Source: Nanobdellota archaeon (GTDB taxonomy: Archaea; Nanobdellota; Nanobdellia; Woesearchaeales; GW2011-AR9). Taken from it: a stretch of DNA of 64,000 nucleotides. The stretch spans positions 53,322 through 117,321 of the forward strand of contig JAUYPX010000026.1 in the NCBI GenBank assembly GCA_030697505.1. Reading direction: 5' to 3'. The translations under genes and the position numbers were made by a program. Of this stretch, positions 37,440 through 51,351 are shown in pieces (positions within the stretch are counted from its first letter, which is position 1; each line of letters opens with the position of its first letter). The notes below the pieces were generated by a model. The model was given only the letters and a program-made list of their open reading frames with translations, made no database searches and was not told where the DNA came from.

Positions 37440-39437
37440 TTAATTCACCTTAAATAAAACTACATTTTCATTAGAGTAAATAGGCGTTAACTTAGTTGAA
37501 GTTAAAAATTCCTGGTAGCGTACCGGAAGCATAGCTTTTACCTCATCTTGGCCAAATTTATCGCTTAAATATTTATAATCCATATTTTTATTGATCATAA
37601 AATATTCATAATTATTGCTTAGTAGGAAAGAATATAACTCATCGTGATTTTTATAAATAATCTCCTTTCTGAAGTCCTTTACCTCCTGGCACCAAGAGCA
37701 GCTAAACCGGCCATACCCAAATACTAGCTTGTCGCGAGGCGCATATAGAAATACCTTGGAATTAAGAGGAATTTGCTTAAAAAGCTCAGCATACAGAAAT
37801 GGTTCCTGCGCGTTAGAGAACGATCCGGAAGTCGGCCAGATAGAAGTATTAGCTTCATATTTGTGCACCCCAGAAGTTAAGATCGCCCCTGCCACTATAA
37901 GCATAGTAAGAGCTACTTGCAACAACTTATTTTTCTTAAAGGTATTGATAAAAACGTAAGTTCCTTCTGCCGCTATAATAGAAACCGGAATCGCCAGCAA
38001 AAACCAGGCTCTAAACGCATCTCGAGCTATGGAAATCGGAAAAGTCATCCCGTTTACCACCCAGAAAGTATAGATCAGCCAAAACAGGACCACTATCCTC
38101 CAACAATTTTCTTGAGAGACTAAAGAAGAACGGTATTTGAAGACTAGATACGCTAATCCAAATAAAGCCAGGATACTAAGAACAACACCTATTCCTATCG
38201 GAGCATTTATCATATTATTTGATTTTGCCACAAAAAAATCTCCAAAGGTATATGCTCTTGATCCTGATCCTCCAGGATGAGTTATAGCTTTAATTACGGA
38301 GAAAAATTTTCCAAAGAAGCTAAACCCCGCAGTATTAGCCACAGCTTCCACACTTGAATTTGAAACCATGGTCTCTCGAAGTGCAACCGGCACCCTCACA
38401 TAGGCACCAATAAAAAATTGTAAAGAATATTTATGTATCATCGCCATCCACCAAAACAGAGAAAGAACCATCCCGCCAAAAATCCCTGCAACGTGATATT
38501 TCAAAAAACGATAGTGGACAACTGATGCTACCAATGCATAAATCAAGAGCATAGTGGTAAGTTTAATCGGTTGGGAGAGATTCTGGGTTACCCAGATGCC
38601 CGCGACCATCACTGCTAAGATTAAAGCCCATTTTTTATTTTCAAATGTCTTGTTAAAGGCATACAGGGCTGGAAAAAGAAGAGTAATGGTCATAGAGTGA
38701 GCCCAAATAAAATGGGAAAGATAGGAAGGAATAACTGCTAAGAAGAAAGTAGCGGCAAGAGCCTTGGTTTTATTCTGCATAAAACTATTCGCAAAAAAAT
38801 AAAAGAAAAAGAATCCTAAAGAAATAATCAAGGCATTAAAGAACTTTATAGTCCAATTAAGGTCTTGGGAAGTTTGGTGTAAAACACCCATCAGAACATC
38901 ATACGCAGGAGGATAGGGATCGATGTAGGAAAAAAATGACTCCGTTTCCTGAGCAGTAGTAGTAATTGGATTATATGCATCTTTGTGGAGAGCAACATAT
39001 TTAACTCCAACAGAATGTCCCCAGGGATCTTCATCTTCAAGATAAGGATAGGCAAAAGCTCCTGAAGCATAGACATAAAGAGAAACTGCAAAAATCAGTA
39101 AAACTGCAGCAACAAAAAGATTGCTTTTAGTTAAGGTTGGCTTAGGGATTTTGGTCGGAAATTTGAAACCATGCTTCTTACAGATTGTAAATCCTGCATA
39201 TAGTGGAACAATCAAGCTCAACAGGAGGAAAATTTTCCAATCTAAAGGAATGCGAAAAAAATTAATGATTATGGAAAGGATGGCAAATACGCCCAGGCCA
39301 ATTCCTATATTCATAATATGCCGCTCAAAAAGATCAGCTTTTGGATTTGCAGATTTAGAATATATAAAATAAGTAAGAGAAAAGCCAAAACCCCAAAGAT
39401 AAATGAAAAATAATAATATGGTTATAACGCTTATCAT
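37440..39437 (-). CDS. Large polytopic membrane protein, PMT_2/ArnT-like GT-C candidate
   Basis: YPYLEDEDPWGHS acidic loop motif and PYPPAYDVLMGVL (hPPLyy-like). 665 aa. Confidence 0.45.
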   Translation of the reverse strand: MISVITILLFFIYLWGFGFSLTYFIYSKSANPKADLFERHIMNIGIGLGVFAILSIIINFFRIPLDWKIFLLLSLIVPLYAGFTICKKHGFKFPTKIPKPTLTKSNLFVAAVLLIFAVSLYVYASGAFAYPYLEDEDPWGHSVGVKYVALHKDAYNPITTTAQETESFFSYIDPYPPAYDVLMGVLHQTSQDLNWTIKFFNALIISLGFFFFYFFANSFMQNKTKALAATFFLAVIPSYLSHFIWAHSMTITLLFPALYAFNKTFENKKWALILAVMVAGIWVTQNLSQPIKLTTMLLIYALVASVVHYRFLKYHVAGIFGGMVLSLFWWMAMIHKYSLQFFIGAYVRVPVALRETMVSNSSVEAVANTAGFSFFGKFFSVIKAITHPGGSGSRAYTFGDFFVAKSNNMINAPIGIGVVLSILALFGLAYLVFKYRSSLVSQENCWRIVVLFWLIYTFWVVNGMTFPISIARDAFRAWFLLAIPVSIIAAEGTYVFINTFKKNKLLQVALTMLIVAGAILTSGVHKYEANTSIWPTSGSFSNAQEPFLYAELFKQIPLNSKVFLYAPRDKLVFGYGRFSCSWCQEVKDFRKEIIYKNHDELYSFLLSNNYEYFMINKNMDYKYLSDKFGQDEVKAMLPVRYQEFLTSTKLTPIYSNENVVLFKVN

Positions 39438-39461: not shown

Positions 39462-41348
39462 CTATTTAAGTTTATCTGTGGCAAACTTTTCATATTCTCC
39501 ATCTATAAAAATCCTGCACCACAGCTCTATATTTAGAAGAGACCAGATCCGCGCCGCATTGACTAGATCTCTAAGGCCGTCGCTTTTACTATTACAATGA
39601 GTATCCAGCAATTTTCTGACATATTTTTGATTGAATATCCCTCTATTCCCAGTTCTCTCATCTAATAAAACTGAATAAACGTATCGTTTCAAATCCTTGC
39701 GGATCCATAAAGAGAACGGAGTAGGGTACCCTTTCTTAGGTTGGCGGTAATGTATAGAAGGCAGATCTTTTCTCATGCTCTGTTTTATTATGTGTTTAAG
39801 TTCATGATGGTGCAATTTAAATTTCAGAGGGACAGAATTGGCAAAATCCACCATCTCATTGTCGCAGAACGGGACTCTTGCTTCTATCGAATGGGCCATC
39901 CCCATCTTATCCTCACAGACCAGAAGCGAAGGAAGGTACGTTTTGAGATATAAGTATTGGGCCTTATCGGCAGAAGAAGTTATATCCTTGCGTTGAAACT
40001 TTTCAAGTACAACGGTGGTATTTTTATTTTGCAGAGCGCCATAAAAAGATTTAGACAATAATCGTTTACGATGCTTTTTGTTGAACATGATGAATAGGCC
40101 ATGCTTAACTTCTTCATCAAAAAGAGGGAAGAACATAAAATAAAGGCTGCGCGGCAGTTCGCTCCAGGTAAAAAAAGAAAAGAATTTCAGGGCCATAAAG
40201 GGATTTTTCCTGACCAGATCCTTAAAATAAGCGACCTTGTAAACTGGATACCCGGCGAATAGTTCGTCGCCGGCATGGCCGGTGAGCACAACTTTGACGT
40301 GTTGAGATACTAATTTCGAGACTACATCTTGAGAGATGACCGGTATTCCCGTCTTTGGCTCGTCAAGATGATAGAGTATTTTTTCGATGTTTGACAAAAA
40401 ATCTTGAGGGGAGATGGTTGCTTCGTGGACCACGGCGCCGATCTTTTTGGCCACTAACCTTGAACCTTTTGTTTCATCATAAATTCCACCTTCTTTAAAA
40501 GTGCCGGTAAATGTCTCTATTCTCTTCTTACTTTTTCCTGCGGCAAAAGTGGCTACTGAACTTGAATCAAATCCTCCGCTTAGATAACTGCCCAAAGGAA
40601 CATCGCTGACCATGTGCCGAGTTACTGACCTTGATAGTATTGACCTAAATTCGTCATAATAATCTTCCACTCTTTGTTTATCGCTCTTCTTATAAGAAGC
40701 ATCCCAATATTGAGTGATCGATACTGCCCCATTTTGCACCAGAAGATAATGCCCTGGAAGGAGCATCTTTACCCCTTCAAAAAAAGTTTTTTCATCCATG
40801 ATATTCTGAAAGGTGAGATATTCTGCCGCTGCTTGCATATTCAATTTGCGAGGGAACTGTTCATCAGCAAGAAACGCTTTGATCTCAGAAGCAAACATAA
40901 ACCGTTTTGCCTGGTCAAAATAATACAACGGTTTAACTCCTACCCTATCCCGGGCCAGAAAAAGAAGATCTTTTTTTGCATCCCAGATCGCAAAGGCGAA
41001 CATTCCATTGAACTTTTGCACACACTCCGGGCCATGCTCTTCATAAGCCCGTAAGATCACTTCCGTATCGCTTTTTGTTTTGAATCTATACTTATTCTCC
41101 AGTTCTTTTCTGATCTCTTTATAGTTATAGATTTCCCCGTTAAAGACGATAACTGCTGACCGGTCATCATTATAGATGGGTTGCTGCCCGGTTTTGAGGT
41201 CGATGATGCTCAGTCTTTTATGTCCCAAGGAAACATTCTTATCAGCAAAAAAACCTTCTCCATCCGGGCCTCGATGGTCCAAAAAAGAAGTCATCCTTCT
41301 CAAAAGCTTGATATCCTTTGGTCCATACCACCCGGAAATTCCACACAT
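39462..41348 (-). CDS. Asparagine synthase (glutamine-hydrolysing)-family amidotransferase (AsnB/WbpS-like)
   Basis: MCGISGWYG N-terminal Cys nucleophile and PP-loop SGGFDSS. Confidence 0.85.
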   Translation of the reverse strand: MCGISGWYGPKDIKLLRRMTSFLDHRGPDGEGFFADKNVSLGHKRLSIIDLKTGQQPIYNDDRSAVIVFNGEIYNYKEIRKELENKYRFKTKSDTEVILRAYEEHGPECVQKFNGMFAFAIWDAKKDLLFLARDRVGVKPLYYFDQAKRFMFASEIKAFLADEQFPRKLNMQAAAEYLTFQNIMDEKTFFEGVKMLLPGHYLLVQNGAVSITQYWDASYKKSDKQRVEDYYDEFRSILSRSVTRHMVSDVPLGSYLSGGFDSSSVATFAAGKSKKRIETFTGTFKEGGIYDETKGSRLVAKKIGAVVHEATISPQDFLSNIEKILYHLDEPKTGIPVISQDVVSKLVSQHVKVVLTGHAGDELFAGYPVYKVAYFKDLVRKNPFMALKFFSFFTWSELPRSLYFMFFPLFDEEVKHGLFIMFNKKHRKRLLSKSFYGALQNKNTTVVLEKFQRKDITSSADKAQYLYLKTYLPSLLVCEDKMGMAHSIEARVPFCDNEMVDFANSVPLKFKLHHHELKHIIKQSMRKDLPSIHYRQPKKGYPTPFSLWIRKDLKRYVYSVLLDERTGNRGIFNQKYVRKLLDTHCNSKSDGLRDLVNAARIWSLLNIELWCRIFIDGEYEKFATDKLK

Positions 41349-41406: not shown

Positions 41407-42342
41407 CTAGCCCTGTTTTCGTTTCTGCTTCTCCGTATGAGAGACAATAAGTTCGCTGACAAATCCCAATCCAAATAACTGCAAGCCCGCCACCAATAGA
41501 AAAACCGTCAGTAAGACTAAAGGCACACGGGTGCCTACTGCCTCTAAAGCCACAAAATTGAGATACAAGACGTAAATTCCGCATAATAATCCAAAAGCTA
41601 TCAAGAAAGCGCCGAGAGAGCCAAACATGCGCATCGGCCTCTTGGAAAAAGAAGTGAGAAACTTAATCACCAGTAGATCTAAGAACCCGCCCGGTATTCT
41701 TTTTAATCCTATCCTTCCATATTTAGATTTTCCAGATTTTCGAGGATAGAACCTAAGCGGCACTTCTTTAATTTTATATTCCTGTTGTGCGGCTAAAATG
41801 ACAAAATATCGATGCCAATCTGAACGCATCGATTCAATATTATAATATACTTCCTTACGAAATGCCCGCACCCAGCCGACATCGCGGAAATGTACCTTAA
41901 ATAAATGACGCACCAAAGCGTTAAAACTTTTAGAGAGAATGGTTTTCAATAAACCCTGCCGTTTATTCACCCTCCAGCCTATCGCTACGTCATATCCTTG
42001 TTCTAAAGCATTGATCAGCTTAGGGAGATCTTCCCGAGGATGCGATTCCAGATCAGAAGAGGTAAAAAAAATGATATCGTAACGGGCATTTTCAATGCCG
42101 GTGATCATGGAAGAGGTAAGGCCGCGATTCTTGCGATGAGAAATGATCCGTAAACGTGGAAATCGTTTCTGTAGATCTTGCAGTATTGGCAGCGTTTTAT
42201 CTTTGCTAGCATCATTAACAATGATTATCTCTCCGGAATAACTATTTTCTTCAAATGCTAGGTTCATCTCGGTTACAAATTCCTCAATACACCCCTGTTC
42301 ATTATATGCAGGAGCTACTACGCTGATTTTAGATTTCATCAT
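41407..42342 (-). CDS. GT2 polyprenyl-phosphate sugar synthase (GtrB/ArnC/DPM1-like) with C-terminal TM pair
   Basis: ISVVAPAYNEQGCIEEF, DxD region and two C-terminal hydrophobic helices. Confidence 0.75.
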   Translation of the reverse strand: MMKSKISVVAPAYNEQGCIEEFVTEMNLAFEENSYSGEIIIVNDASKDKTLPILQDLQKRFPRLRIISHRKNRGLTSSMITGIENARYDIIFFTSSDLESHPREDLPKLINALEQGYDVAIGWRVNKRQGLLKTILSKSFNALVRHLFKVHFRDVGWVRAFRKEVYYNIESMRSDWHRYFVILAAQQEYKIKEVPLRFYPRKSGKSKYGRIGLKRIPGGFLDLLVIKFLTSFSKRPMRMFGSLGAFLIAFGLLCGIYVLYLNFVALEAVGTRVPLVLLTVFLLVAGLQLFGLGFVSELIVSHTEKQKRKQG

Positions 42343-42452: not shown

Positions 42453-43433
42453 TCACCCGTTTTTATTTCGGAGCTGTCCGGCAATCCATTGCTTTGTTCT
42501 TTCCAACCCTTCATCAAAAGTTATTGATTCCTTGAATCCCACATTTTCTATTTTTTTAGTGCTGGGTATGGGCTTAAGATTTTCTCCCAACCGGGGAGCG
42601 ATAAATTCTGGCCTCATCCCGGGAGGACCGTACTTAGATATCACTTGATTGGCTAATTGCAGCACACTGATCCTATTTCTAGATGCCACATTGTAATCCT
42701 GGCCGATCGAGCGGTTATTTTTATATAAAATGAGGTTGGCATCAACTGCATCATCCACAAAAGTGAAACATCTGATCGCTTCACCGGTGCCGCATACTTG
42801 GGGAGGCAGCCCTTTAAGGACCCGCGATAAAAAGATACCGACTACCCCCGCTTCACCAGTATAATCCTGCCGTGGTCCAAAGACATGAAAATAACGCAAG
42901 ACGGTAGCTTTAATGCCGTAAAGCCGATGGTATAATAAGAAATATTTTTCTGCTGCCAATTTGCTTATACCGTACACAGTAGAAGGATTCATAGCGTCAA
43001 CTTCTTCAAAAGGCTTGTCGCTGCTGCCAAAAACTGAACCCGTGGAAGCATGTATTATTCTGGCATCGCTCTCGCTTTTTCTCATGATTTCCGCGATATT
43101 AAAATTTCCGACCACATTTGTTTGAACATCGATAGTCGGGTCTTTTAAACTGACCACCAGTTTGGAAGCGGCTTCATTAAAAATGATATCGCTTTCTTCG
43201 ACCCAGGGCTTTACCTCCTGATAATCCTTAATATCAGCTTTGACGAATGTAAATCGCGGATCGGTTTTCCAATGAGCTATATTATTAAGGCTGCCATTAG
43301 TGCCGGCGAGGTTATCATAACAAATCACTTTTTCAGCACCTAATTCTAACGCTTTATCAACTAAATGACTGCCTATAAATCCGGCTCCGCCGGTTACCAA
43401 GACTACTTTATTTTTAAATAGGTCCTTATTCAT
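42453..43433 (-). CDS. NAD-dependent nucleotide-sugar epimerase/dehydratase (extended SDR)
   Basis: VLVTGGAGFIGSHLVDKALELG and YGISK. Confidence 0.8.
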   Translation of the reverse strand: MNKDLFKNKVVLVTGGAGFIGSHLVDKALELGAEKVICYDNLAGTNGSLNNIAHWKTDPRFTFVKADIKDYQEVKPWVEESDIIFNEAASKLVVSLKDPTIDVQTNVVGNFNIAEIMRKSESDARIIHASTGSVFGSSDKPFEEVDAMNPSTVYGISKLAAEKYFLLYHRLYGIKATVLRYFHVFGPRQDYTGEAGVVGIFLSRVLKGLPPQVCGTGEAIRCFTFVDDAVDANLILYKNNRSIGQDYNVASRNRISVLQLANQVISKYGPPGMRPEFIAPRLGENLKPIPSTKKIENVGFKESITFDEGLERTKQWIAGQLRNKNG

Positions 43434-45058
43434 GGCATTTGCTCATTCTCTTTACTTAAACATTCATTAACCTTCTCCGCTACATACCTAATCTGTTCTT
43501 CAGTCATTTCAGGATACATGGGCAAGGAAACTATTTCCTTTGTAATCTTCTCGACCATGGGAAAATCTCCCTCTTTATATCCCAAAGAAGCATACGCCGG
43601 TTGCAGATGTAAAGGAGTGGGATAATTTATGCCGGAACTGATTCCATTTTCTTTTAAGAAATTAATTAATTTTTCCCTATTTTTAACCCTGATTACATAT
43701 TGGTGATAAACGTGTTTATGATTCTCAGGAACATGCGGTAGAATAATTCCTGAAGAGCTGAGATACCGATGGTATAATCGCGCATTTTCAATCCTTTGCT
43801 GATTCCATCCCTGAAGATGCTTTAATTTCACCGTAAGAACCGCTGCTTGAAGACTATCCAGCCTTTCGTTATATCCCTCCAGTTCATGGATATACTTTTC
43901 ACCCGGCTTTCTGCCATGGTTTCGTAACATCAATATTTTTTCTGCGATGGGATCATGGTTAGTGATGACTGCTCCGGCGTCTCCAAAAGCGCCGAGATTT
44001 TTTCCTGGAAAAAAACTAAAGGTTGCGGCATCGCTGTAAAATCCTGGAGGATTGTTGTTGTACAGGGCACCATGCGCTTGCGCAGCATCTTCTATGACCT
44101 TAAGATGGTGCTTATCGGCAATTTTTCGTATGCTTTCCATATCGCACATCAAACCATTCAAATGAACCGCGAGGATAGCTTTCGTATTTTCAGTGATTGC
44201 TGAGTCTATTTTTGTGACATCCAGCAGCTGGGTCTTTTCTTCGATATCGACAAATTTTATTTTCGCGCCAACTTTTGAGATCGCTTCTGTCGTCGCTATA
44301 AAGGTATGGGGGGCAGTTATTACCTCATCGCCGCCCTTGACTCCGCAAGCTTCCAGTGCCAATGAAATCGCGCTGGTGCCGTTGCTGACGCCAATGGCAT
44401 GTTTAACCTGGCAATAAGCCGCGAAATCTTTTTCAAAATGGCCGATCTGCTCCGACATGATGAAGGAACAATCATCTACTGTCTTTTTAATAGCTAGATC
44501 CAGTTCATCCCGTATTTTTGAATGCTGTAATCTTAAATCTGCTAAAGGAATTTTCATTGCACCAGCTTCTTTTTGAGCTTTAGGCAGATGCCGTATAATT
44601 TTTGCGGGATTTCCTGCAACCACACAATCATCTGGAACATCTTTAGTAACCACCGCTCCTGCACCGACTATTGAATTTTCCCCAATCGTTACCGGCATAA
44701 GGGTGGCATTGCTGCCTATTACTGCATTTCTTTTAATTACGGTAGATTTCCATTCTTTATCCGAACCGGTCCTTCTTTTAGAAGGAGGATGCAGATCATT
44801 TATAGTCATGACTCCATGACCGATAAAAACATTATCCTCAATGGTAACTAAGGAACAGATAAATGAATGAGAAGAGATAATGACATTATCTCCTATTTTA
44901 GTGTTGTTTTGCACTTCCACGTAAGAGCCTATTTTAGTATTTTTTCCGATCTTTGTCCCATATACATTTGCAAATTCCCACACCTGTGACCCTTCCCCGA
45001 TTACTGAATCTTTAACTATTGAGGTACCCGAAATTTTCACTCCGCTGGTCTTTTCCAT
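43430..45058 (-). CDS. Bifunctional fusion. N-terminal hexapeptide-repeat (LbH) N-acetyltransferase plus C-terminal DegT-family aminotransferase (WbpD-WbpE-like).
   Basis: Residues 1-170 carry repeated [LIV]G..x..[LIV] hexapeptides (VIGEGSQVWEFANVYGTKIGKNTKIGSYVEV...). Residues about 180-542 have GVSNGTSAISLALEA, FSFFPGKNLGAFGDAGAV and LRNHGRK. Confidence 0.8.
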   Translation of the reverse strand: MEKTSGVKISGTSIVKDSVIGEGSQVWEFANVYGTKIGKNTKIGSYVEVQNNTKIGDNVIISSHSFICSLVTIEDNVFIGHGVMTINDLHPPSKRRTGSDKEWKSTVIKRNAVIGSNATLMPVTIGENSIVGAGAVVTKDVPDDCVVAGNPAKIIRHLPKAQKEAGAMKIPLADLRLQHSKIRDELDLAIKKTVDDCSFIMSEQIGHFEKDFAAYCQVKHAIGVSNGTSAISLALEACGVKGGDEVITAPHTFIATTEAISKVGAKIKFVDIEEKTQLLDVTKIDSAITENTKAILAVHLNGLMCDMESIRKIADKHHLKVIEDAAQAHGALYNNNPPGFYSDAATFSFFPGKNLGAFGDAGAVITNHDPIAEKILMLRNHGRKPGEKYIHELEGYNERLDSLQAAVLTVKLKHLQGWNQQRIENARLYHRYLSSSGIILPHVPENHKHVYHQYVIRVKNREKLINFLKENGISSGINYPTPLHLQPAYASLGYKEGDFPMVEKITKEIVSLPMYPEMTEEQIRYVAEKVNECLSKENEQMP

Positions 45059-45098
45059 GTCTCTTTTTCTAACTGTTATCTATTTTTCTTATTCTATC

Positions 45099-46076
45099 TT
45101 ATTCTATTTTGCAGATCTCATGATTTTGCGCCGACTTTATGGCCAGCAAACACATCTTTGTGGTAAGGATATTCTCAGCAGAAAGATTGGAATGCACTTC
45201 TTCGCCCATATTTTTTTTATTGCAAAGATGGACAAAATATTTTAATTCTTCAAGCAAAGGCTGGTTTTTTCCGACCTGCGGATCACGAAAGGTTTCCTTC
45301 TTTTCTGTTTTATCTTCTTGGACCACCAGAGGGTGTCTTTCAATGACTTGATCTAAGAAATCAAGATAGAGTTTTTCTTTAGAGCCGATTATCCACATAT
45401 CTCTTTTCTTCAAGGGATGGCAGCAGCTAACCTCAAGATGGGCGCTAAATTTCCCATAGTCAATGGTTATGACGGAAGAATCTTCATTCTGTTTAGAGAT
45501 CAAATGCGAATTTCGAGCATAGATATTTTGCGGGCTAGGCTCTAGCAGGGTATTCAAAAAATCAATAAGATGCACGCCTAGATTAAAAATAACGCCTGAA
45601 TCCTTACGCGGCGGGACCGTAGAATGGATGTACCTGCCGGAGATGTAATGTATTTCACCGATCTCTGATAACAGCTCTTTCATCCTGTTGATGAGGGGAT
45701 TAAAGCGAAGAACGTACCCTACAGAAAGGATAGCTTTCTTTTCCTGGGCCAGCTCCATCAATTCCTGCACCTCCCGGTATTCAAAACAGAGCGGCTTTTC
45801 TACAAAAATATGTTTTCCCTGCAGAAGACATTCTTTAGCCACTTGGTGATGAAGGGTGGTGGGCACCACTATGGTTACTGCATCGACGAAAGGAAGCATC
45901 TCTTTATAATTTTGAAAAAATCGGATATTGTGCTTGGAGGCCAGCTCTCTCTTGCTTTCATCGATATCTGCAAGAGCGACCAGATGACAAGAGGAGATTT
46001 TAGATAAGTCTCGGAGATGGTTTTCGCCCCATTTTCCCGATCCTATTATTCCTATCTTAACCACTCTTAACCACAA
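45099..46076 (-). CDS. Gfo/Idh/MocA-family NAD-dependent oxidoreductase (WbpB-like nucleotide-sugar 3-dehydrogenase candidate)
   Basis: KIGIIGSGKWGENHLRD Rossmann N-terminus and EKPL motif (FVEKPLCF). Confidence 0.75.
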   Translation of the reverse strand: MWLRVVKIGIIGSGKWGENHLRDLSKISSCHLVALADIDESKRELASKHNIRFFQNYKEMLPFVDAVTIVVPTTLHHQVAKECLLQGKHIFVEKPLCFEYREVQELMELAQEKKAILSVGYVLRFNPLINRMKELLSEIGEIHYISGRYIHSTVPPRKDSGVIFNLGVHLIDFLNTLLEPSPQNIYARNSHLISKQNEDSSVITIDYGKFSAHLEVSCCHPLKKRDMWIIGSKEKLYLDFLDQVIERHPLVVQEDKTEKKETFRDPQVGKNQPLLEELKYFVHLCNKKNMGEEVHSNLSAENILTTKMCLLAIKSAQNHEICKIE

Positions 46077-46105: not shown

Positions 46106-47623
46106 TTATGATTCTAAGACCTCATATTTATAGATGGTCACACCTATGAATTTCCTTTCCTCTTTCAATTCGTATAACGAATCCAATCGCAGTTTAAAAT
46201 AATCTTTGGTGTGAAAATTATGGCTTAAAATTAAGTAAGCATCCCTTTTTTCTGAAGCTCTTTCTATCAGCAAGTAATCATCCTCACCTGGTGTTATCAA
46301 CCGCACTTCTTCAACATTGCCGGAATAGTAGTAATCAAAACATAACTTAGCTATAGTGGCGCGATGAAGAAAGAGCACGTCTGCCGAAGTAGCATGACTT
46401 TCTATGTACTCAGCAGCTTCATGAAATTGTTCCTTGGAATCGATATCATAATAAGTGTATAACTCCGCTGAGGCGCTTATCACTATAAGGATGAAAAACC
46501 CAGTTGCCAGGCTATTTTGTTTTATTCGCAATAAGATTCTAGAAAGTAGGATGTAACCTAAAGGAAGCAGAAAGAAGCCGAACCTGATGATATGGACAGA
46601 TGAAAAAAAATACCTGCTCCAGATAAGATCCATCATGATAAAAGAAAGCAGCAGCAAAGAGATTATTTTTTGGTTTGAAAAATAAGTGAAGATGCGTTTA
46701 AGATGGCCAATCAATATGTTCAAATTAATTTTATCGGCCATGACCAGATATAAAGTTATGAAATAGAATAAACCGAGAAAAGCTGCGACAACTACCGCCA
46801 GGGGAAGTAAATCAAAGCCTAATTTTTCAATCAATTTTCCCCCAAGGGATTTATACAGGAGAGGAAGCTGATAAAAGGCCAAGATGTTGAGCCAGGGTAA
46901 AAAGAGCAGAAAGACCATCAAAAGAGCTAAGAAGAACTTTGGAGAAAAAATCTGCCTCTGGAAGAAAGGAGAAACAGTATCTTTTTTCTTCTGCTTAAAA
47001 AAATAACCGGTAGAATAAAATACGATATAACCTGCCAGAATCGCCAGGCTTATAATGTGCGTATAGAGCAACAAAGCTACAGAAACCGAAAAGAACAAGG
47101 TGTTTAGAACAGACGGTTTTTTCATGAATGCAATAAAAGATAGGAGAGACAGCAGGAAAAATGCTGCGAACATACTGTACATCTTCGCTTCCTGAGAATA
47201 AAGTACAGAAGTATACGAAATACTGACCAAAAAGGCAGCCAACAACCCTTCCTTCCAGGAGAAGATTTTTCGTGCCAAAAGAAAGGTAAGAAAAACGGTA
47301 AGAACCCCAAAAAAAACAGAAAGGATACGTAAACTGATCTCTGAATATCCAAAATACTCCATCAACAGATGCTGAGGAAGGTAATACCCGATAGGATGGA
47401 CATCTTTCTTGAGAGTTTCAATTAGAAGATTAACAGGTTTTGAAGCATAATCAAGCGTAAAACATTCATCCAGCCATAAACTCTCTTCACCTAAATCGTA
47501 CAGCCTGAGGATGCCTGCTCCTAAAAGTATTATTGCTAATACCCAAGCTATAATGACTTTATCTCTCAAATCCTTCCTCATGACACCTTTTTTAGAAGAT
47601 GGTTTAAAAGATTTCTGAAGCAA
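46106..47623 (-). CDS. PMT_2/ArnT-like GT-C glycosyltransferase (GT39/GT83 family)
   Basis: LRLYDLGEESLWLDECFT first-loop DE motif and HPIGYYLPQHLL (hPPLyyWl-like). Confidence 0.6.
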   Translation of the reverse strand: MLQKSFKPSSKKGVMRKDLRDKVIIAWVLAIILLGAGILRLYDLGEESLWLDECFTLDYASKPVNLLIETLKKDVHPIGYYLPQHLLMEYFGYSEISLRILSVFFGVLTVFLTFLLARKIFSWKEGLLAAFLVSISYTSVLYSQEAKMYSMFAAFFLLSLLSFIAFMKKPSVLNTLFFSVSVALLLYTHIISLAILAGYIVFYSTGYFFKQKKKDTVSPFFQRQIFSPKFFLALLMVFLLFLPWLNILAFYQLPLLYKSLGGKLIEKLGFDLLPLAVVVAAFLGLFYFITLYLVMADKINLNILIGHLKRIFTYFSNQKIISLLLLSFIMMDLIWSRYFFSSVHIIRFGFFLLPLGYILLSRILLRIKQNSLATGFFILIVISASAELYTYYDIDSKEQFHEAAEYIESHATSADVLFLHRATIAKLCFDYYYSGNVEEVRLITPGEDDYLLIERASEKRDAYLILSHNFHTKDYFKLRLDSLYELKEERKFIGVTIYKYEVLES

Positions 47624-47681: not shown

Positions 47682-48614
47682 ATGGAATCTATCCCCGCAT
47701 CATCAAAAGTTAAACCTTCAAAAAAGCCGAAGGTCATCATTTCTATCCCGGCTTATAACGAAGAAAGAGACCTAGGAAGAACTATCGGCGAAATAAAAGA
47801 AACATTGAGAGAGACTTCTTACCATTATAAAATTTTAGTATTAAATGACGGAAGCAGGGATAACACCGCCAAGATCGCTGAAGAGCAAGGGGCGATGGTT
47901 GTCTCCCATCGGCGCAACAAGGGATTGGCAGAGACCTTCCGTACGGAGATGAAGGAATGTCTGGAACGCCAGGCAGATATCATCGTCCATACCGATGCCG
48001 ATGGCCAATATGATCCGCGGCATATTCCCCAGCTTATAGCGAAAGTGCAGCAAGGATATGATCTCGTCCTGGGCAGCCGCTTCCGTGGGAAGATCCAATA
48101 CATGCCTTTCACCAAACGCGTGGGAAACATTCTTTTTTCCAAAGTGTTAAGCTCTCTGGCCAAAGTGAGAATTACCGACTCGACCACGGGATTCCGGGCC
48201 TTCACTTCCGAGCTGGCCAGAGAGATAGATTTCATCAACACCTTTACCTACACTCAGGAACAGATCATCAAGGCAGCCAAGCAGGGCTTTAGGATCGCTG
48301 AGATTCCCATCGACTCAAGAAGAACCAGAAAAAGCAGGCTTTTCAAGAATCCGCTCCAGTATGCAGTCAAGGCTTGGATAAATATTTTTAGGATCTACCG
48401 AAACTACGAGCCGCTGCAATTCTTCGGAAAAATTGGATTGACTTTCTTCGGCATTGGCATCCTCTTGGGAGTTTGGCTCGTATACCGTTTTATCACTTTA
48501 GGTAATGTAGGAAGACTCCCTACGACCGTCTTAAGCGCTTTGTTTATGCTGGTGGGAATCCAGATTGTTCTGTTTGGTTTTTTAGCGGATATGATCAATA
48601 ATAGAAAGATCTAA
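47682..48614 (+). CDS. GT2 polyprenyl-phosphate sugar synthase (GtrB/ArnC-like) with C-terminal TM helices
   Basis: ISIPAYNEERDL, VLNDGSRDNT and C-terminal hydrophobic pair (GLTFFGIGILLGVWLVY...LFMLVGIQIVLFGFL). Confidence 0.8.
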   Translation: MESIPASSKVKPSKKPKVIISIPAYNEERDLGRTIGEIKETLRETSYHYKILVLNDGSRDNTAKIAEEQGAMVVSHRRNKGLAETFRTEMKECLERQADIIVHTDADGQYDPRHIPQLIAKVQQGYDLVLGSRFRGKIQYMPFTKRVGNILFSKVLSSLAKVRITDSTTGFRAFTSELAREIDFINTFTYTQEQIIKAAKQGFRIAEIPIDSRRTRKSRLFKNPLQYAVKAWINIFRIYRNYEPLQFFGKIGLTFFGIGILLGVWLVYRFITLGNVGRLPTTVLSALFMLVGIQIVLFGFLADMINNRKI

Positions 48615-48665: not shown

Positions 48666-49394
48666 TCATTTATTCTGTGCAGAAAAAAAATCATCATCAG
48701 CTTTCTGCAGTTTGATGAGCGTCGTAGCTAACTTCTTCACCATCTCTATCGTATGCATCGCCGCATAACATGCCAGACCAACAAATGGTTGATTAAGCAG
48801 AATGCAGAAAAACATGAGATTAAGAGGATGTTCTATGCGCACGAATCCAAATATGAAAACAGTTAATTTACTTCTTTTCCGGGGATTCAGCTGAGTCATG
48901 ATTTCTGCTACCCGTTCCCGCTGCTCTCCTTTGTAGGAGATCAAATTTAAGTTGAAAAGCTTGGCAAATACAAATGCGCCGACAGCTATTCCGCCTAAAT
49001 ACAATGAACGTAGGTCATTAGTCATCTTATATGTGCCAAGAGTCAAGCCGCATAGTACTGCGATTATAGTTATATGATGCGCGATCTGCTCAAGATACTG
49101 GCCTTTCAAGGTGGATTTATTGCGGTATCTAGCCAAATTGCCGTCGACACAATCAAAGAAATGTCCAAGATGGTAAATGACTATTCCTAAAAGCATCCAC
49201 TTATACAAACCGGTCGACAACAAAACTGCACCGGCCAAACCCAAAAATAACCAGAACAAGGTAACCTGATTGGAAGTGATGGGAGTATTGATGAACGGTT
49301 TGGTAAAATAAAATCCGATTTCATGAACTAATTTGTTTGAAAAACCCCAATATTCCTTTTTGCATTTTTCCCTGAGTTCGTTTATAGTGACCAT
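48666..49394 (-). CDS. CDP-alcohol phosphotransferase-superfamily membrane protein with a divergent signature
   Basis: DCVDGNLARYRNKSTLKGQYLEQIAH resembles D-G-x2-A-R-x8-G-x3-D-x3-D, but the last two Asp are E and H. It has multiple TM helices. Confidence 0.5.
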   Translation of the reverse strand: MVTINELREKCKKEYWGFSNKLVHEIGFYFTKPFINTPITSNQVTLFWLFLGLAGAVLLSTGLYKWMLLGIVIYHLGHFFDCVDGNLARYRNKSTLKGQYLEQIAHHITIIAVLCGLTLGTYKMTNDLRSLYLGGIAVGAFVFAKLFNLNLISYKGEQRERVAEIMTQLNPRKRSKLTVFIFGFVRIEHPLNLMFFCILLNQPFVGLACYAAMHTIEMVKKLATTLIKLQKADDDFFSAQNK

Positions 49395-49404
49395 GATTCT
49401 TTCT

Positions 49405-50142
49405 TTATTTTTTGTTTAAGTTATTAATATTACTAATGTTACTGATCATCTCGTGTTTTTTAGTAATATAATACCACATTACGATAGCATCCTGTTCTGC
49501 AGTTGGACTCTCAGAATTATCGTAGGGAATGGCATCCTTCGCTCTAGTCAAAGGGCTTATTATCCTGGTACGGTCACGTTCATCGATATCCTCGATTATC
49601 TTGCGAACCTCTTCCGGAGTATGTTTTGTTTTCTCCCCGGGAGGCAGCATTTTGAAGAACCTCTTTACTTTCACGTCCATGGAAGCATCCAAAAAGAATT
49701 TCCAATCGGCATTAGGAAATACCGTTGTTCCAGTATCACGCCCTTCGACAACAAAACCGCCTTGGCTGGCAATACTGCGTTGAAGCTCCAGAAGCTTTTC
49801 TCTGACCGCAGGAATGCTTGCGACTTTTGAAGCTAAAGAAACAACTTCATTTGAAGTTATGCTCGCAGCCACGTCCTCGCCGTTCAAAAATAAATGACTC
49901 TCGCCTTGGACTGATCTAAATTCCATAGTCACCGCTTTCATGGCCTTGATGATATCCTTCTCCTCTGCCAAACCTTTTTTTTTGACGAAGTATCCGATAG
50001 CGCGGAACATCGCTCCCGTATTCAGATACTGGTATCCCATCAGCTTAGCCAGCGCTTTTGCAGAAGTTGATTTTCCGGTCCATGAAGAGCCATCGATGGT
50101 AATGATCATCTTTTCTCTTTTCTTTCCGCCTTCCATGACCAA
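49405..50142 (-). CDS. cmk: Cytidylate kinase, bacterial type
   Basis: ITIDGSSWTGKSTSAKALAKLMGYQYLNTGAMFRAIGY aligns closely to E. coli Cmk (ITIDGPSGAGKGT...DSGAIYR). DERDRTRIISPL ~ ERDDRDRNRAVAPL. The ORF track uses a TTG start; the true start is probably an internal ATG near 50115. Confidence 0.8.
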   Translation of the reverse strand: MVMEGGKKREKMIITIDGSSWTGKSTSAKALAKLMGYQYLNTGAMFRAIGYFVKKKGLAEEKDIIKAMKAVTMEFRSVQGESHLFLNGEDVAASITSNEVVSLASKVASIPAVREKLLELQRSIASQGGFVVEGRDTGTTVFPNADWKFFLDASMDVKVKRFFKMLPPGEKTKHTPEEVRKIIEDIDERDRTRIISPLTRAKDAIPYDNSESPTAEQDAIVMWYYITKKHEMISNISNINNLNKK

Positions 50143-50199
50143 AACGAAGCAGAAAAGGTTTAAGAAGATTATGGAATAAGGTTTTATGTGAAAGGGTGA

Positions 50200-51351
50200 T
50201 CAACTGATTCTCTTTAATATATCTCGTAAAGCTCCTTCCGTAAGCTCCCGCGGATTGTTATTCACCCTCTCCGGATTAAATCCATGAGCAACAATGATAT
50301 CATGATGTTCTGGAGAGTTTATCTTGAGATCAACCAATCTTCTGGTAAGCCCGATCTGATCCATGAGATTATTTATCTTCTCTTGCAGCTGTTTAGAGGC
50401 CTGCACCTGAAAGAGCGAACATAATTCAGAAAGAGTTTTCTTGACAGATTCGGCGCCTCTTCCGTCAAGACAATCGTCATCGGTCACTGCACTATTGTAC
50501 AAACACATCTCTCCTAAAGTCAACGCGCAGGCATGGCCATGGGAAACTCCAAAATAAGAGGTCATCGGATATGAGACAGCATGGCAGGCAGTAGTCTTAG
50601 ACACATTTATCGCTTTTCCAGCCAGATTGGCTCCCAGCAGCATCGCTTCACGATTCGGTGCGGAAGGATTGTTCACCGCCGAGGCCAAATTATCCAGAAT
50701 TATCTTTATTGCTTTCCGGGCATATTCTTTAGATTCCTCTGTTGACTGGGTAGACCAATATGATTCCACGGCCTGGCATAATGCATCTATCCCTGTAGAA
50801 GCCGTGATATACTTGGGCAGATTGAAAGAAAGGTTTGGATCTAGAAAAACATATTTTGGCAGCATCCATCCCTGATGACCGAGAGAATATTTTGTTTTCC
50901 CGATGTATACGACGGCAAAATGTGTGGCTTCCGATCCCGTACCGGCGGTAGTGGGAATGGCCACAAAAGATTTCGGCTTATGAGCTGCAATCAATTTCTT
51001 AGTGATATAATCTTCCGGTACTTCATATTGAGCTGCAAGAAAATTAATCGATTTTGCTATATCAATGACGCTTCCTCCCCCGATAGCAATTACCAAGTCA
51101 CAGCCTGATCGTCTGAATAAAGCGATCCCTTTTTTAACATCTTCAAGCTGGGGATTGACTGAAAAATCAGAGAAAAAAATAACCTTGTAATCTGAAAGCA
51201 GGGATTCAAACATTTTTTGCGCTCCAGAACGTTGGTAAGAATTTTTCCCCGTCACTACAAAAACAGATGATGGTTTCTCCTTTTCTAAAACCTCACTGAG
51301 TCGAGCAAGACTTCCTGGACCGATATATTCATATTGCATCTTTATCTTCAA
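50200..51351 (-). CDS. Iron-containing alcohol dehydrogenase family (phosphonoacetaldehyde reductase candidate)
   Basis: GGGSVIDIAKSINFLAA Fe-ADH signature. 4-bp overlap with upstream ppd. Confidence 0.75.
   Translation of the reverse strand: MKIKMQYEYIGPGSLARLSEVLEKEKPSSVFVVTGKNSYQRSGAQKMFESLLSDYKVIFFSDFSVNPQLEDVKKGIALFRRSGCDLVIAIGGGSVIDIAKSINFLAAQYEVPEDYITKKLIAAHKPKSFVAIPTTAGTGSEATHFAVVYIGKTKYSLGHQGWMLPKYVFLDPNLSFNLPKYITASTGIDALCQAVESYWSTQSTEESKEYARKAIKIILDNLASAVNNPSAPNREAMLLGANLAGKAINVSKTTACHAVSYPMTSYFGVSHGHACALTLGEMCLYNSAVTDDDCLDGRGAESVKKTLSELCSLFQVQASKQLQEKINNLMDQIGLTRRLVDLKINSPEHHDIIVAHGFNPERVNNNPRELTEGALRDILKRIS

What the first reader, a model, noticed from the sequence alone, without database searches (positions are those of the whole stretch)
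43430..46076. WbpB/WbpD/WbpE-like route to a 2,3-diacetamido uronic acid, with acetyltransferase and aminotransferase fused
Four enzymes match the known UDP-GlcNAc(3NAc)A logic of Pseudomonas O5 and Methanococcus Agl17-20. They are a Gfo/Idh/MocA oxidoreductase (45099..46076), a single LbH-acetyltransferase::DegT-aminotransferase polypeptide (43430..45058), a nucleotide-sugar 6-dehydrogenase (59645..60952) and an SDR epimerase (42453..43433). The adjacent AsnB-type amidotransferase could convert the uronate to a uronamide, or attach an amino acid. The D and E steps are non-consecutive in the pathway (oxidation, transamination, acetylation), so their fusion is unusual.
Basis: partly seen in the sequence, partly recalled or inferred. 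Interest (0 to 1): 0.5.

Follow-up and report, generated by a model that had tools for sequence, protein, structure and literature searches.

The report
Fused acetyltransferase–aminotransferase in an archaeal sugar cassette
A DPANN archaeon carries an ordinary, widely distributed gene cassette for putting an acetylated amino group on carbon 3 of an activated sugar; two neighbouring genes have simply merged, and nothing in the window shows that the product is a uronic acid.

Summary
The ORFs and domains are exactly as described. The window matches a Nanoarchaeota (DPANN) MAG. Gfo/Idh/MocA oxidoreductase (45099..46076), LbH::DegT fusion (43430..45058) and a GalE-like SDR (42453..43433) lie in one tight minus-strand array.

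The core reading holds. The aminotransferase half groups with sugar C-3 aminotransferases. The LbH half is the single-domain WlbB/QdtC/FdtD type, not PglD type. A Gfo-LbH-DegT cassette recurs in archaea and bacteria.

- WbpE and WbpD catalyse consecutive steps.
- The fusion is not unusual. Over 100 fused clusters exist. Relatives at 61-69% identity are unfused, and one has the two genes overlapping by 4 nt. The window reads through and keeps the old start Met. Gfo::DegT, DegT::Gfo and DegT::SDR fusions also occur.
- The 6-dehydrogenase is Ugd-class, 14 kb away next to GalE. No WbpA-class dehydrogenase or WbpI-type 2-epimerase is in the window.

The most likely product is a UDP-2,3-diacetamido-2,3-dideoxyhexose made from UDP-GlcNAc, probably passed to an ArnC-like GT2 and a GT-C. 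The role of AsnB is unresolved. This is a new member of a known kind, of low interest.

The parts
45099..46076 (-). Gfo/Idh/MocA NAD-dependent oxidoreductase, predicted nucleotide-sugar (UDP-GlcNAc) 3-dehydrogenase. This is step 1.
   Evidence: Pfam GFO_IDH_MocA N and C3 domains. The best NCBIfam model is NF040723, archaeal UDP-GlcNAc 3-dehydrogenase, at 197.6 bits over the full length (below its cutoff of 450; the next best family scores 97 bits). The best PDB hit is 7bvj = GnnA at 74 bits, against WlbA 3q2i/3q2k at 34-38 bits. A homologue lies immediately upstream of LbH/DegT in most related loci. Gfo::DegT and DegT::Gfo fusions exist.
44564..45058 (-). N-terminal left-handed beta-helix N-acetyltransferase domain of the fusion (residues 1-165). 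This is step 3.
   Evidence: Hexapep/LbH Pfam hits. PDB: 4mzu FdtD-N 100 bits, 7s3u 99, WlbB 3mqg 81, QdtC 3fs8 79, aligned over essentially the whole domain. It has no N-terminal alpha/beta domain of the PglD class. TIGR03570 NeuD/PglB scores only 76 bits, below its cutoff of 161.
44555..44563 (-). End of the ~11-residue linker (HLPKAQKEAGA, residues ~158-168). The linker is a former intergenic spacer that is now read through.
   Evidence: Junction alignment against unfused LbH and DegT neighbours. The DNA is in frame. L040 has the two genes separate with a 4-nt overlap.
43430..44554 (-). C-terminal DegT/DnrJ/EryC1 PLP-dependent sugar C-3 aminotransferase domain (residues 169-542, beginning at the retained ancestral start Met169). 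This is step 2.
   Evidence: Pfam DegT E 1e-117. PDB: 7b0d 365 bits, QdtB 333, DesV 306, WlaRG-type 264, WbpE 234. The PLP-Lys motif SFFPGK (K353) and the EDAAQ motif (D324) are present.
42453..43433 (-). GalE-like SDR, start overlapping the fusion's stop by 4 nt. Predicted nucleotide-sugar 4-epimerase acting on the substrate or the product.
   Evidence: Best PDB hits are UDP-glucose 4-epimerases 4zrm and 7ys8. The ASTGSVFG...YGISK motifs lack the Asp-Glu pair of 4,6-dehydratases (read from the sequence). An SDR accompanies the cassette in L006, L007, L039, L040 and the P0141 locus. It is fused to DegT in the P0146 locus and in P0270.
41407..42342 (-). GT2 with two C-terminal TM helices, a polyprenyl-phosphate sugar synthase type (ArnC/PgfS/AglJ-like). 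Inferred to load the modified sugar onto dolichyl phosphate.
   Evidence: NCBIfam PgfS 107 bits and ArnC PRK10714 100 bits over the full length, AglJ 76 bits, all below cutoffs. Two C-terminal TM segments. Syntenic in L001, L006 and L007.
39462..41348 (-). AsnB-family glutamine-dependent amidotransferase. Its role in this cassette is unresolved.
   Evidence: TIGR01536 at 502 bits (above cutoff 267). eps_aminotran_1 TIGR03108 at 480 bits (below cutoff 817). E. coli-type AsnB at 327 bits (below 499). An AsnB-family gene lies within 10 kb of 8 of 11 archaeal cassettes, and is embedded as Gfo-DegT-AsnB-LbH in L038 and L041.
46106..47623 (-). Polytopic (~11 TM) PMT_2/GT-C-type glycosyltransferase at the head of the array. 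Inferred to be the extracytoplasmic transferase that uses the lipid-linked sugar.
   Evidence: Pfam PMT_2 30 bits. Weak Agl23-family hit. ~11 TM segments. Conserved directly upstream of Gfo in L004-L007. PMT_2 plus GT2 pairs lie near the cassettes in the P0146 and P0172 loci and in L041.
47682..48614 (+). Divergently oriented GT2, AglJ/dolichyl-phosphate hexose transferase-like, with two C-terminal TM helices. It is part of the conserved block.
   Evidence: NCBIfam AglJ 157 bits, DPhHxTase 111 bits (below cutoffs). TM segments. Conserved in L001 and L004-L007.
59645..60952 (-). UDP-glucose 6-dehydrogenase-class enzyme.
   Evidence: PDB BceC 2y0c/2y0e 436-440 bits, against archaeal UDP-HexNAc DH 4r16 at 171 bits. 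NCBIfam TuaD 506, AglM 412, TviB 66 bits. It is flanked by an NTP_transferase (60949..61692) and a GalE above its cutoff (58659..59627, 378 bits vs 262). It lies 14 kb from the fusion.

Best explanation
The minus-strand array 47623->39462 is a sugar-tailoring and delivery cassette of a DPANN archaeon.

Steps supported by homology and conserved gene context:
- The Gfo/Idh/MocA enzyme oxidises C-3 of a UDP-hexose, most likely UDP-GlcNAc.
- The DegT domain of the fusion transaminates the 3-keto sugar.
- The LbH domain of the same polypeptide N-acetylates the new 3-amine.
- The result is a UDP-2,3-diacetamido-2,3-dideoxyhexose.

The fusion joins two consecutive steps. It arose by read-through of the short spacer between two neighbouring, translationally coupled genes.

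Inferred steps:
- The translationally coupled GalE-like SDR 4-epimerises the substrate or the product.
- The ArnC/AglJ-like GT2 loads the sugar onto dolichyl phosphate.
- The PMT_2-type GT-C adds it to a surface acceptor outside the membrane, which is an Arn-pathway-like logic.

C-6 oxidation is not encoded in the cassette, so as far as the window shows the product is not a uronic acid. The AsnB-family enzyme's substrate is unknown.
For: - Domain and family assignments.
- 7bvj is GnnA, a UDP-GlcNAc 3-dehydrogenase.
- Conserved Gfo-LbH-DegT order, fused or as separate adjacent genes, in archaeal, Chloroflexi, Bacteroidota and Planctomycetota loci.
- Rosetta-stone fusions Gfo::DegT, DegT::Gfo and DegT::SDR in the same aminotransferase clade.
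- Junction anatomy and the unfused 65% relative with a 4-nt overlap.
- The DegT-domain tree nests the fused clade inside unfused sisters.
- Intact PLP-Lys and Asp motifs; soluble enzymes; GT2s with two C-terminal TM helices; polytopic GT-C; gaps of -4 to 110 nt along the array.
- The dehydrogenase is Ugd-class and sits elsewhere.
- A Ugd-family gene lies within +-10 kb in only 1 of the loci surveyed and in 2 of 11 archaeal cassettes.
Against: - No biochemical data exist for any member of this clade.
- The Gfo scores well below the curated cutoff of the UDP-GlcNAc 3-dehydrogenase model (198 vs 450 bits), so UDP-Glc (kanosamine-type) or UDP-GlcNAcA substrates are not excluded.
- Both halves of the fusion score somewhat higher against dTDP-3-amino-3,6-dideoxyhexose enzymes than against WbpE/WlbB.
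- The recurrent, sometimes operon-embedded AsnB hints at a carboxylate somewhere in the product. A WbpA-class dehydrogenase could be encoded outside the 64-kb window.
- The related cassette in L037 does have a UDP-HexNAc-class dehydrogenase directly upstream.
- The GT2/GT-C delivery step rests on gene content alone.
Confidence: 0.55

Rival explanations
1. The cassette makes UDP-GlcNAc3NAcA, a 2,3-diacetamido uronic acid. The 6-oxidation is supplied in trans by the Ugd-class enzyme at 59645..60952 or by a dehydrogenase outside the window. AsnB then converts the uronate to a uronamide or an amino-acid amide.
For: - P. gingivalis WbpS (AsnB-type, eps_aminotran_1 family) lies next to wbpE and makes the uronamide of the Wbp sugar (PMC7468200).
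- The window AsnB aligns over the full length of that family model (480 bits).
- An AsnB-family gene accompanies 8 of 11 archaeal cassettes and is embedded in the operon in L038 and L041.
- L037 has a UDP-HexNAc-class dehydrogenase directly upstream of Gfo-LbH-DegT.
- M. maripaludis N-glycans contain GlcNAc3NAcA and a Thr-amidated derivative (PMC11407970).
Against: - The window's dehydrogenase is Ugd-class, not WbpA-class, and belongs to an NTP-transferase-Ugd-GalE trio 14 kb away.
- No other UDPG_MGDP_dh and no Epimerase_2 protein is in the window.
- Across archaeal cassettes, AsnB and a nearby 6-dehydrogenase never co-occur within 10 kb.
- The Gfo is closer to GnnA and the archaeal UDP-GlcNAc 3-dehydrogenase model than to WlbA.
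- The AsnB is below the eps_aminotran_1 cutoff (480 vs 817 bits).
Confidence: 0.25
2. Kanosamine-type chemistry. The Gfo oxidises UDP-glucose (RifL/RifK- or NtdC/NtdA-like logic), and the fusion yields UDP-3-acetamido-3-deoxyglucose, with no 2-acetamido group.
For: - The Gfo is below the curated cutoff for UDP-GlcNAc 3-dehydrogenase.
- NtdA-type aminotransferases are detectable relatives (4k2b, 173 bits).
- UDP-Glc-supplying genes (NTP-transferase, GalE, Ugd) are in the island.
Against: - The best curated family and the best structure for the Gfo both act on UDP-GlcNAc.
- NtdA is a far weaker match than the nucleotide-sugar C-3 aminotransferases.
- An LpxC-like deacetylase::DegT::GT2 fusion in the same clade points to HexNAc substrates.
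Confidence: 0.1
3. dTDP-Qui3NAc/Fuc3NAc-type chemistry. The fusion acts on a dTDP-3-keto-6-deoxyhexose made by a 4,6-dehydratase and a 3,4-ketoisomerase (QdtA/B/C logic), and the Gfo is unrelated to the pathway.
For: QdtB (333 bits), DesV (306 bits), FdtD-N (100 bits) and the H. pullorum enzyme (99 bits) outscore WbpE (234 bits) and WlbB (81 bits).
Against: - The cassette has no RmlB-type dehydratase and no cupin isomerase. The SDR lacks the dehydratase Asp-Glu pair and is GalE-like.
- The window's only cupin and 4,6-dehydratase belong to a separate plus-strand GDP-mannose module with its own DegT.
- The Gfo partner is conserved across phyla and is even fused to this DegT clade.
Confidence: 0.05

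Closest known systems
   Same: The central three steps are the same: a Gfo/Idh/MocA 3-dehydrogenase, a DegT-family C-3 aminotransferase, and a single-domain LbH N-acetyltransferase. They are encoded side by side (pathway order from PMC10622841).
   Different: There is no WbpA-class 6-dehydrogenase and no WbpI-type 2-epimerase in the window. The Gfo is not WbpB/WlbA-like by sequence (34-38 bits against 74 for GnnA). The E and D enzymes are one polypeptide. An SDR, an ArnC-like GT2, a GT-C and an AsnB travel with the cassette.
GnnA/GnnB (UDP-GlcNAc 3-dehydrogenase plus transaminase giving UDP-GlcNAc3N for lipid A) and the archaeal UDP-GlcNAc 3-dehydrogenase family NF040723
   Same: These are the best structural and curated-family matches for the Gfo. 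They start from UDP-GlcNAc with no prior C-6 oxidation.
   Different: Here the 3-amine is predicted to be acetylated by a dedicated LbH domain rather than acylated by LpxA for lipid A. The organism is an archaeon without lipid A. The score is below the family cutoff.
QdtB/QdtC and FdtD (dTDP-3-acetamido-3,6-dideoxyhexose pathways). FdtD is a known bifunctional LbH acetyltransferase::ketoisomerase.
   Same: These are the highest-scoring solved relatives of both halves. FdtD is a precedent for fusing this LbH class to another pathway enzyme (reference list in PMC9271549).
   Different: The fusion partner is different (an aminotransferase, not a cupin isomerase). The predicted route to the 3-keto sugar is different (direct 3-dehydrogenation, not 4,6-dehydration plus isomerisation).
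Arn (L-Ara4N) pathway: ArnA/ArnB/ArnC/ArnT
   Same: The overall logic is the same. A UDP-sugar is oxidised, transaminated by a DegT enzyme and N-acylated. A GT2 transfers it to polyprenyl phosphate, and a GT-C uses it outside the membrane. ArnA is likewise a fusion of the acyltransferase with another pathway enzyme. The GT2 at 41407..42342 aligns over the full length of ArnC (100 bits).
   Different: The position modified differs (C-3, not C-4), there is no decarboxylation, and the acyl group is acetyl rather than formyl. The resemblance rests on gene content only, and all scores are below equivalog cutoffs.
P. gingivalis Wbp/Vim pathway with the WbpS amidotransferase
   Same: An AsnB-family amidotransferase is encoded next to the C-3 aminotransferase gene of a diacetamido-sugar pathway (PMC7468200).
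   Different: P. gingivalis has WbpA and makes a uronic acid for WbpS to amidate. The window shows no WbpA-class enzyme, and its AsnB is below the eps_aminotran_1 cutoff.

Membership tests
Wbp/Wlb UDP-GlcNAc3NAcA / ManNAc3NAcA pathway | UDP-GlcNAc 6-dehydrogenase (WbpA class) supplying UDP-GlcNAcA | tested here: not met
   The only UDPG_MGDP_dh protein in the window is Ugd-class (TuaD 506, AglM 412, TviB 66 bits; BceC 440 bits vs 4r16 171 bits). For contrast, L037's cassette-adjacent DH408 scores UDP-ManNAc DH 202, TviB 146 and TuaD 94 bits. The rest of the genome could not be searched.
Wbp/Wlb UDP-GlcNAc3NAcA / ManNAc3NAcA pathway | Gfo/Idh/MocA 3-dehydrogenase orthologous to WbpB/WlbA | tested here: not met
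   The fold family is met. However, WlbA structures 3q2i/3q2k score only 34-38 bits, below many inositol dehydrogenases, and GnnA scores 74 bits. Whether it works like WbpB was not testable.
Wbp/Wlb UDP-GlcNAc3NAcA / ManNAc3NAcA pathway | PLP-dependent C-3 aminotransferase (WbpE class) with the catalytic Lys | tested here: met
   WbpE 3nyu/3nu7 at E 3e-68, 234 bits, over the full length. K353 and D324 motifs present. Closer relatives exist (QdtB, DesV).
Wbp/Wlb UDP-GlcNAc3NAcA / ManNAc3NAcA pathway | Single-domain LbH N-acetyltransferase (WbpD/WlbB class) | tested here: met
   WlbB 3mqg at 81 bits, aligned 8-154 of 192 residues. No extra N-terminal domain.
Wbp/Wlb UDP-GlcNAc3NAcA / ManNAc3NAcA pathway | UDP-sugar 2-epimerase (WbpI, non-SDR) | tested here: not met
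   No Epimerase_2-family hit among the window ORFs of 150 aa or more that were scanned. The SDR present is GalE-like.
Archaeal UDP-GlcNAc 3-dehydrogenase (NCBIfam NF040723) / GnnA | Score at or above the curated equivalog cutoff | tested here: not met
   197.6 bits against a cutoff of 450, although this is the best family by about 100 bits and the alignment is full length. The best PDB hit is GnnA 7bvj.
Archaeal UDP-GlcNAc 3-dehydrogenase (NCBIfam NF040723) / GnnA | NAD+-dependent oxidation of UDP-GlcNAc at C-3 | not testable with these tools
   Requires an enzyme assay.
PglD/PglE (4-amino-6-deoxy, diNAcBac-type) chemistry | Bilobal acetyltransferase with an N-terminal alpha/beta nucleotide-binding domain and a catalytic His; C-4 aminotransferase | tested here: not met
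   The beta-helix starts at about residue 5, leaving no room for the ~90-residue N-terminal domain described for this class (PMC8040287; PMC9271549). TIGR03570 scores 76 bits (cutoff 161), and its best stretch matches only the last ~47 residues. PglE-type structures (1o61, 4ztc) score only 82-84 bits against 234-365 bits for C-3 aminotransferases.
QdtA/QdtB/QdtC dTDP-Qui3NAc pathway | Accompanying dTDP-glucose 4,6-dehydratase and cupin 3,4-ketoisomerase | tested here: not met
   Neither is in the cassette or in related cassettes. The window's cupin (19416..19949) and 4,6-dehydratase (17455..18477) are in a separate GDP-mannose module.
WbpS / eps_aminotran_1 uronamide-forming amidotransferases (TIGR03108) | Score at or above the curated cutoff; a uronic-acid substrate is available | tested here: not met
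   480 bits against a cutoff of 817. The protein passes only the generic TIGR01536 model (502 vs 267 bits). No cassette-linked 6-dehydrogenase.
UDP-glucose 6-dehydrogenase | Nucleotide-sugar dehydrogenase subfamily membership and closest similarity to characterised UDP-Glc dehydrogenases | tested here: met
   TIGR03026 at 467 bits (cutoff 190). TuaD at 506 bits (below the equivalog cutoff of 700). Top PDB hits are all UDP-glucose dehydrogenases.

The most novel reading that the evidence does not exclude
The AsnB that is repeatedly embedded in archaeal Gfo-DegT-(AsnB)-LbH operons lacking any nearby 6-dehydrogenase may perform an undescribed amidation on a 2,3-diamino sugar pathway. The whole array would then be an Arn-like, dolichyl-phosphate-monosaccharide route by which DPANN archaea decorate their surface with a new diacetamido (amide) sugar.
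Probability: 0.1. Interest if true: 0.5.

Novelty: new member of a known kind. Interest (0 to 1): 0.18.

Why it matters
The main value is in correcting the annotation. The locus is a standard C-3 amino-sugar tailoring cassette. The fusion is a common Rosetta-stone event joining consecutive steps. Gene content does not support calling the product a uronic acid. It adds a small point of interest for archaeal glycobiology: DPANN genomes, usually described as biosynthetically poor, carry large glycan islands. The cassette's fusions (LbH::DegT, DegT::SDR, Gfo::DegT) give useful functional-linkage evidence for an uncharacterised but very widespread enzyme set.

Tried and rejected
- **Residue-level test for a C-6 carboxylate pocket.** I tried to read the WlbB, WbpB/E/D and H. 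pullorum papers (PMC2879449, PMC2694220, PMC2673254, PMC8605375). None is held, so no such test was possible.
- **Identity of 7b0d.** The best aminotransferase structure could not be identified from the literature.
- **Literature on MMP0350-0353 / Agl17-20.** Nothing searchable was found.
- **First GnnA literature query.** It returned noise.
- **Borg-element hypothesis.** It was prompted by 'Methanosarcinales' labels on L004-L006 and by a preprint describing GnnA-like, PEP mutase and CDP-alcohol phosphotransferase clusters on Borgs. I rejected it for lack of support: only three marginal tandem-repeat rows in 64 kb, mixed strand organisation, and the NCBI label is Nanoarchaeota.
- **PglD/PglE-type chemistry.** Rejected.
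- **Assembly artefact as the origin of the fusion.** Rejected.
- **Structure prediction and fold search.** Not run. Sequence matches to solved structures were already at E 1e-20 to 1e-108, and a model would not have resolved substrate identity.
- **Rest of the MAG.** The 122-kb contig outside the window could not be retrieved.

Full report
**Observation.**
- 43430..45058 encodes a 542-aa protein. It has a hexapeptide/left-handed beta-helix (LbH) region over residues ~5-160 and a full-length DegT/DnrJ/EryC1 aminotransferase domain over 183-530 (E 1e-117).
- 45099..46076 is a Gfo/Idh/MocA oxidoreductase. 42453..43433 is an extended SDR. 59645..60952 is a three-domain nucleotide-sugar 6-dehydrogenase. 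39462..41348 is an AsnB-type amidotransferase.
- The fusion is real. The junction is in frame with no stop. A 100% identical protein is deposited as 'DegT/DnrJ/EryC1/StrS family aminotransferase [Nanoarchaeota archaeon]' on a 122-kb contig. Fused orthologues at 77-83% identity occur in several independent MAGs.

**The enzymes of the core cassette.**
- *Aminotransferase half.* Its best solved relatives are 7b0d (365 bits), QdtB (333), DesV (306), the C. jejuni-type 5u1z (264) and WbpE (234). All those I can identify are sugar C-3 aminotransferases. PglE/PseC-type C-4 enzymes score far lower. The PLP lysine (K353 in SFFPGK) and the cofactor aspartate (D324 in EDAAQ) are present.
- *LbH half.* It aligns over its whole length with FdtD-N (4mzu, 100 bits), the H. 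pullorum N-acetyltransferase (7s3u, 99), WlbB (3mqg, 81) and QdtC (3fs8, 79). It lacks the ~90-residue N-terminal alpha/beta domain that characterises PglD/PerB/VioB-type enzymes (PMC8040287; PMC9271549).
- *Gfo.* Its best curated family is the archaeal UDP-GlcNAc 3-dehydrogenase model NF040723. The score is 198 bits over the full length, about 100 bits above any other family but below the cutoff of 450. Its best structure is 7bvj (74 bits), which is GnnA, a UDP-GlcNAc 3-dehydrogenase. WlbA structures score only 34-38 bits. Its closest database relatives are DPANN and Thermoplasmata proteins, and where a source names them they are called UDP-N-acetylglucosamine 3-dehydrogenase.

**Gene context decides between routes.** On similarity alone, a dTDP-Qui3NAc-type route (QdtA/B/C) would be a serious rival. 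Context argues against it.
- I surveyed 33 loci from named genomes plus metagenomic contigs. A Gfo homologue sits directly beside the LbH and DegT genes across archaea, Chloroflexi, Bacteroidota and Planctomycetota.
- None of these cassettes has a 4,6-dehydratase plus cupin isomerase.
- An exhaustive search of 1.8 billion representatives found Gfo::DegT (P0248, P0301) and DegT::Gfo (P0273) fusion proteins in this same aminotransferase clade. That is direct Rosetta-stone evidence that the aminotransferase uses the Gfo's 3-keto product.

**The fusion.**
- *The steps are consecutive.* The established pathway order is WbpA, WbpB, WbpE, WbpD, WbpI (PMC10622841). Aminotransferase and acetyltransferase therefore act one after the other.
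- *The architecture is common.* Of the 120 best 90%-identity clusters, 114 are full-length LbH::DegT proteins of 519-583 aa, including ones from Pelotalea chapellei and a Desulfuromonadaceae MAG. At the 50%-identity level, at least 8 of the 150 best representatives are LbH::DegT.
- *The origin is visible.* In many loci LbH (150-170 aa) and DegT (~370 aa) are separate genes in the same order. In five of the six loci checked they are separated by -4 to +10 nt; in L010 the spacer is 138 nt. The 65%-identical relative L040 has them overlapping by 4 nt. The window protein reads '...GNPAKIIRHLPKAQKEAGA-M-KIPLADL...', keeping the ancestral DegT start Met at residue 169 behind an ~11-residue linker.
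- *It arose more than once.* A DegT-domain tree nests the window's fused clade (8 clusters, 77-100% identity) inside successive unfused sisters at 69, 68, 65, 61, 54 and 53% identity. The other ~108 fused clusters lie outside that group. So the fusion arose at least twice.
- *Other partners fuse too.* DegT::SDR occurs in the P0146 locus (684 aa) and in P0270. LpxC::DegT::GT2 occurs in P0288.

**The uronic-acid claim.** The only 6-dehydrogenase in the window is Ugd-class.
- Its top structures are all UDP-glucose dehydrogenases (BceC 436-440 bits), against 171 bits for the archaeal UDP-HexNAc dehydrogenase 4r16.
- Its NCBIfam profile is TuaD 506, AglM 412, UDP-ManNAc DH 203 and TviB 66 bits.
- It lies 14 kb from the fusion. 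A phosphonate module and opposite-strand genes lie in between. It sits between a sugar-1-phosphate nucleotidyltransferase and a GalE that passes its curated cutoff.
- A related archaeal locus (L037) shows what a WbpA-type partner looks like. A 408-aa dehydrogenase directly upstream of Gfo-LbH-DegT scores UDP-ManNAc DH 202, TviB 146 and TuaD 94 bits. The same locus also has a separate Ugd-class enzyme (TuaD 579) resembling the window's.
- The window has no second UDPG_MGDP_dh protein and no Epimerase_2 (WbpI-type) protein.
I could not search the remainder of the MAG, so a trans-encoded WbpA-class enzyme is not excluded.

**The SDR.** It is GalE-like. Its best structures are the UDP-glucose 4-epimerases 4zrm and 7ys8. 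The ASTGSVFG...YxxxK motifs lack the Asp-Glu pair of 4,6-dehydratases (read from the sequence). It is not the equivalent of WbpI, which is a non-SDR 2-epimerase. It does belong to the cassette: its start overlaps the fusion's stop by 4 nt, it recurs in related loci, and it is fused to DegT elsewhere. A 4-epimerase role is inferred.

**Downstream logic (inferred).**
- The array 47623->37440 has gaps of 29, 40, -4, 110, 58 and 24 nt.
- It contains a polytopic PMT_2/GT-C protein (~11 TM), the three soluble tailoring enzymes, a GT2 with two C-terminal TM helices, AsnB, and another ~11-TM protein. The GT2 aligns over the full length of ArnC and PgfS (100-107 bits, below cutoffs).
- A second AglJ-like GT2 lies divergently upstream.
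- The block is syntenic in L001 and L004-L007. PMT_2/GT2 pairs accompany more distant archaeal cassettes.
- This is the gene content of an Arn-like route: tailor a UDP-sugar, load it on polyprenyl phosphate, then transfer it outside the membrane with a GT-C.

**AsnB.**
- It passes only the generic asparagine-synthase model (502 vs 267 bits). It aligns over the full length of eps_aminotran_1 at 480 bits, below the cutoff of 817.
- eps_aminotran_1 is the family of WbpS, WbqG and PGN_1234, which make uronamides. PGN_1234 lies near wbpE (PMC7468200).
- An AsnB-family gene lies within 10 kb of 8 of 11 archaeal cassettes. In L038 and L041 it is embedded as Gfo-(MT)-DegT-AsnB-LbH.
- Yet in none of those loci is a 6-dehydrogenase within reach. 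The two loci with a nearby dehydrogenase (L037 and the P0172 locus) lack AsnB.
- I cannot explain this pattern. The sample is small and the flanks are limited.

**Verdict.** This is a well-described, correctly located observation of an ordinary and widespread C-3 amino-sugar tailoring cassette.
- The Wbp-like core is supported.
- The uronic-acid end product, the SDR's place in the 'known logic', the 'non-consecutive' argument and the claim of unusualness are not supported.
- The most likely product is a UDP-2,3-diacetamido-2,3-dideoxyhexose derived from UDP-GlcNAc (confidence about 0.55). A uronic acid or uronamide is the main rival (0.25).
- Novelty: new member of a known kind. Interest is low.

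Noticed in passing
window 48666..56156 (minus strand): A complete phosphonate module. It contains a cytidylyltransferase::PEP mutase fusion (54849..56156; TIGR02320 389 bits, cutoff 320), phosphonopyruvate decarboxylase (51348..52484; 500 bits, cutoff 313), an Fe-ADH (50200..51351), a cytidylate-kinase-like protein (49405..50142) and a CDP-alcohol phosphatidyltransferase (48666..49394). This suggests a CMP-activated phosphonate head group attached to a glycan or lipid. The same module lies next to a Gfo-LbH-DegT cassette in the P0172 locus.
   Followed up: partly
window 3923..6703 (minus strand): A WbuX-family N-acetyl-sugar amidotransferase (3923..5194; 358 bits, cutoff 203) sits next to a HisF-like::HisH-like fusion (5204..6703; WbuZ 270 bits, HisH 195 bits). 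This is the machinery that converts an acetamido group to an acetamidino group. It could act on the 3-acetamido sugar made by the cassette 38 kb away, but no linkage was tested.
   Followed up: partly
window 15419..24547 (plus strand): A second, separate sugar module: two C-methyltransferases, a GT2, a GDP-mannose 4,6-dehydratase (457 bits), an SDR, a cupin, an RmlD-like protein, a stand-alone DegT (22017..23180) and an SDR with an N-terminal extension. It looks like a GDP-6-deoxy, C-methylated amino-sugar pathway.
   Followed up: no
P0146 locus; P0270, P0248, P0301, P0273, P0288: The same aminotransferase clade occurs fused in several other ways: DegT::SDR, Gfo::DegT, DegT::Gfo, LpxC-like::DegT::GT2, HAD::DegT and DegT::DegT. 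Any pair of cassette members seems able to fuse.
   Followed up: partly
L006, L007, L011, L037, L038, L039, L041, P0141/P0146/P0172 loci and window 39462..41348: An AsnB-family gene accompanies 8 of 11 archaeal cassettes. A 6-dehydrogenase lies within 10 kb of 2 of 11. The two never occur together. This is unexpected if AsnB amidates a C-6 carboxylate of the cassette's product.
   Followed up: partly
L004, L005, L006 versus L007 and the window: Three loci 78-81% identical and syntenic to the window are labelled 'uncultured Methanosarcinales archaeon' MAGs, whereas the window's own protein and L007 are labelled Nanoarchaeota. This is either mis-binning or mislabelling, or a mobile island. A Borg-like origin was checked and found no support.
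   Followed up: partly
window 62199..63983 (plus strand): A 594-aa protein combines an NTP_transferase domain, a HAD/phosphomannomutase-like domain and a mannose-6-phosphate isomerase C-terminal cupin. It is an apparent three-domain fusion for GDP-mannose supply.
   Followed up: no
window 24651..26513, 32685..34541, 37440..39437 (minus strand): Three large (618-665 aa) proteins have 10-11 predicted TM segments and no Pfam or NCBIfam match. They are interspersed with PMT-type GT-C genes, methyltransferases, GDSL proteins and a carbamoyltransferase (27889..29649). They may be divergent GT-C-type transferases or polymerases.
   Followed up: no
window 45062..45110: A marginal 25-nt x2 tandem repeat spans the 40-nt spacer between the Gfo stop and the fusion start. 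Separately, the Gfo ORF as listed starts at TTG and is 325 aa, whereas close orthologues are 321 aa, so the true start may be a few codons downstream.
   Followed up: no
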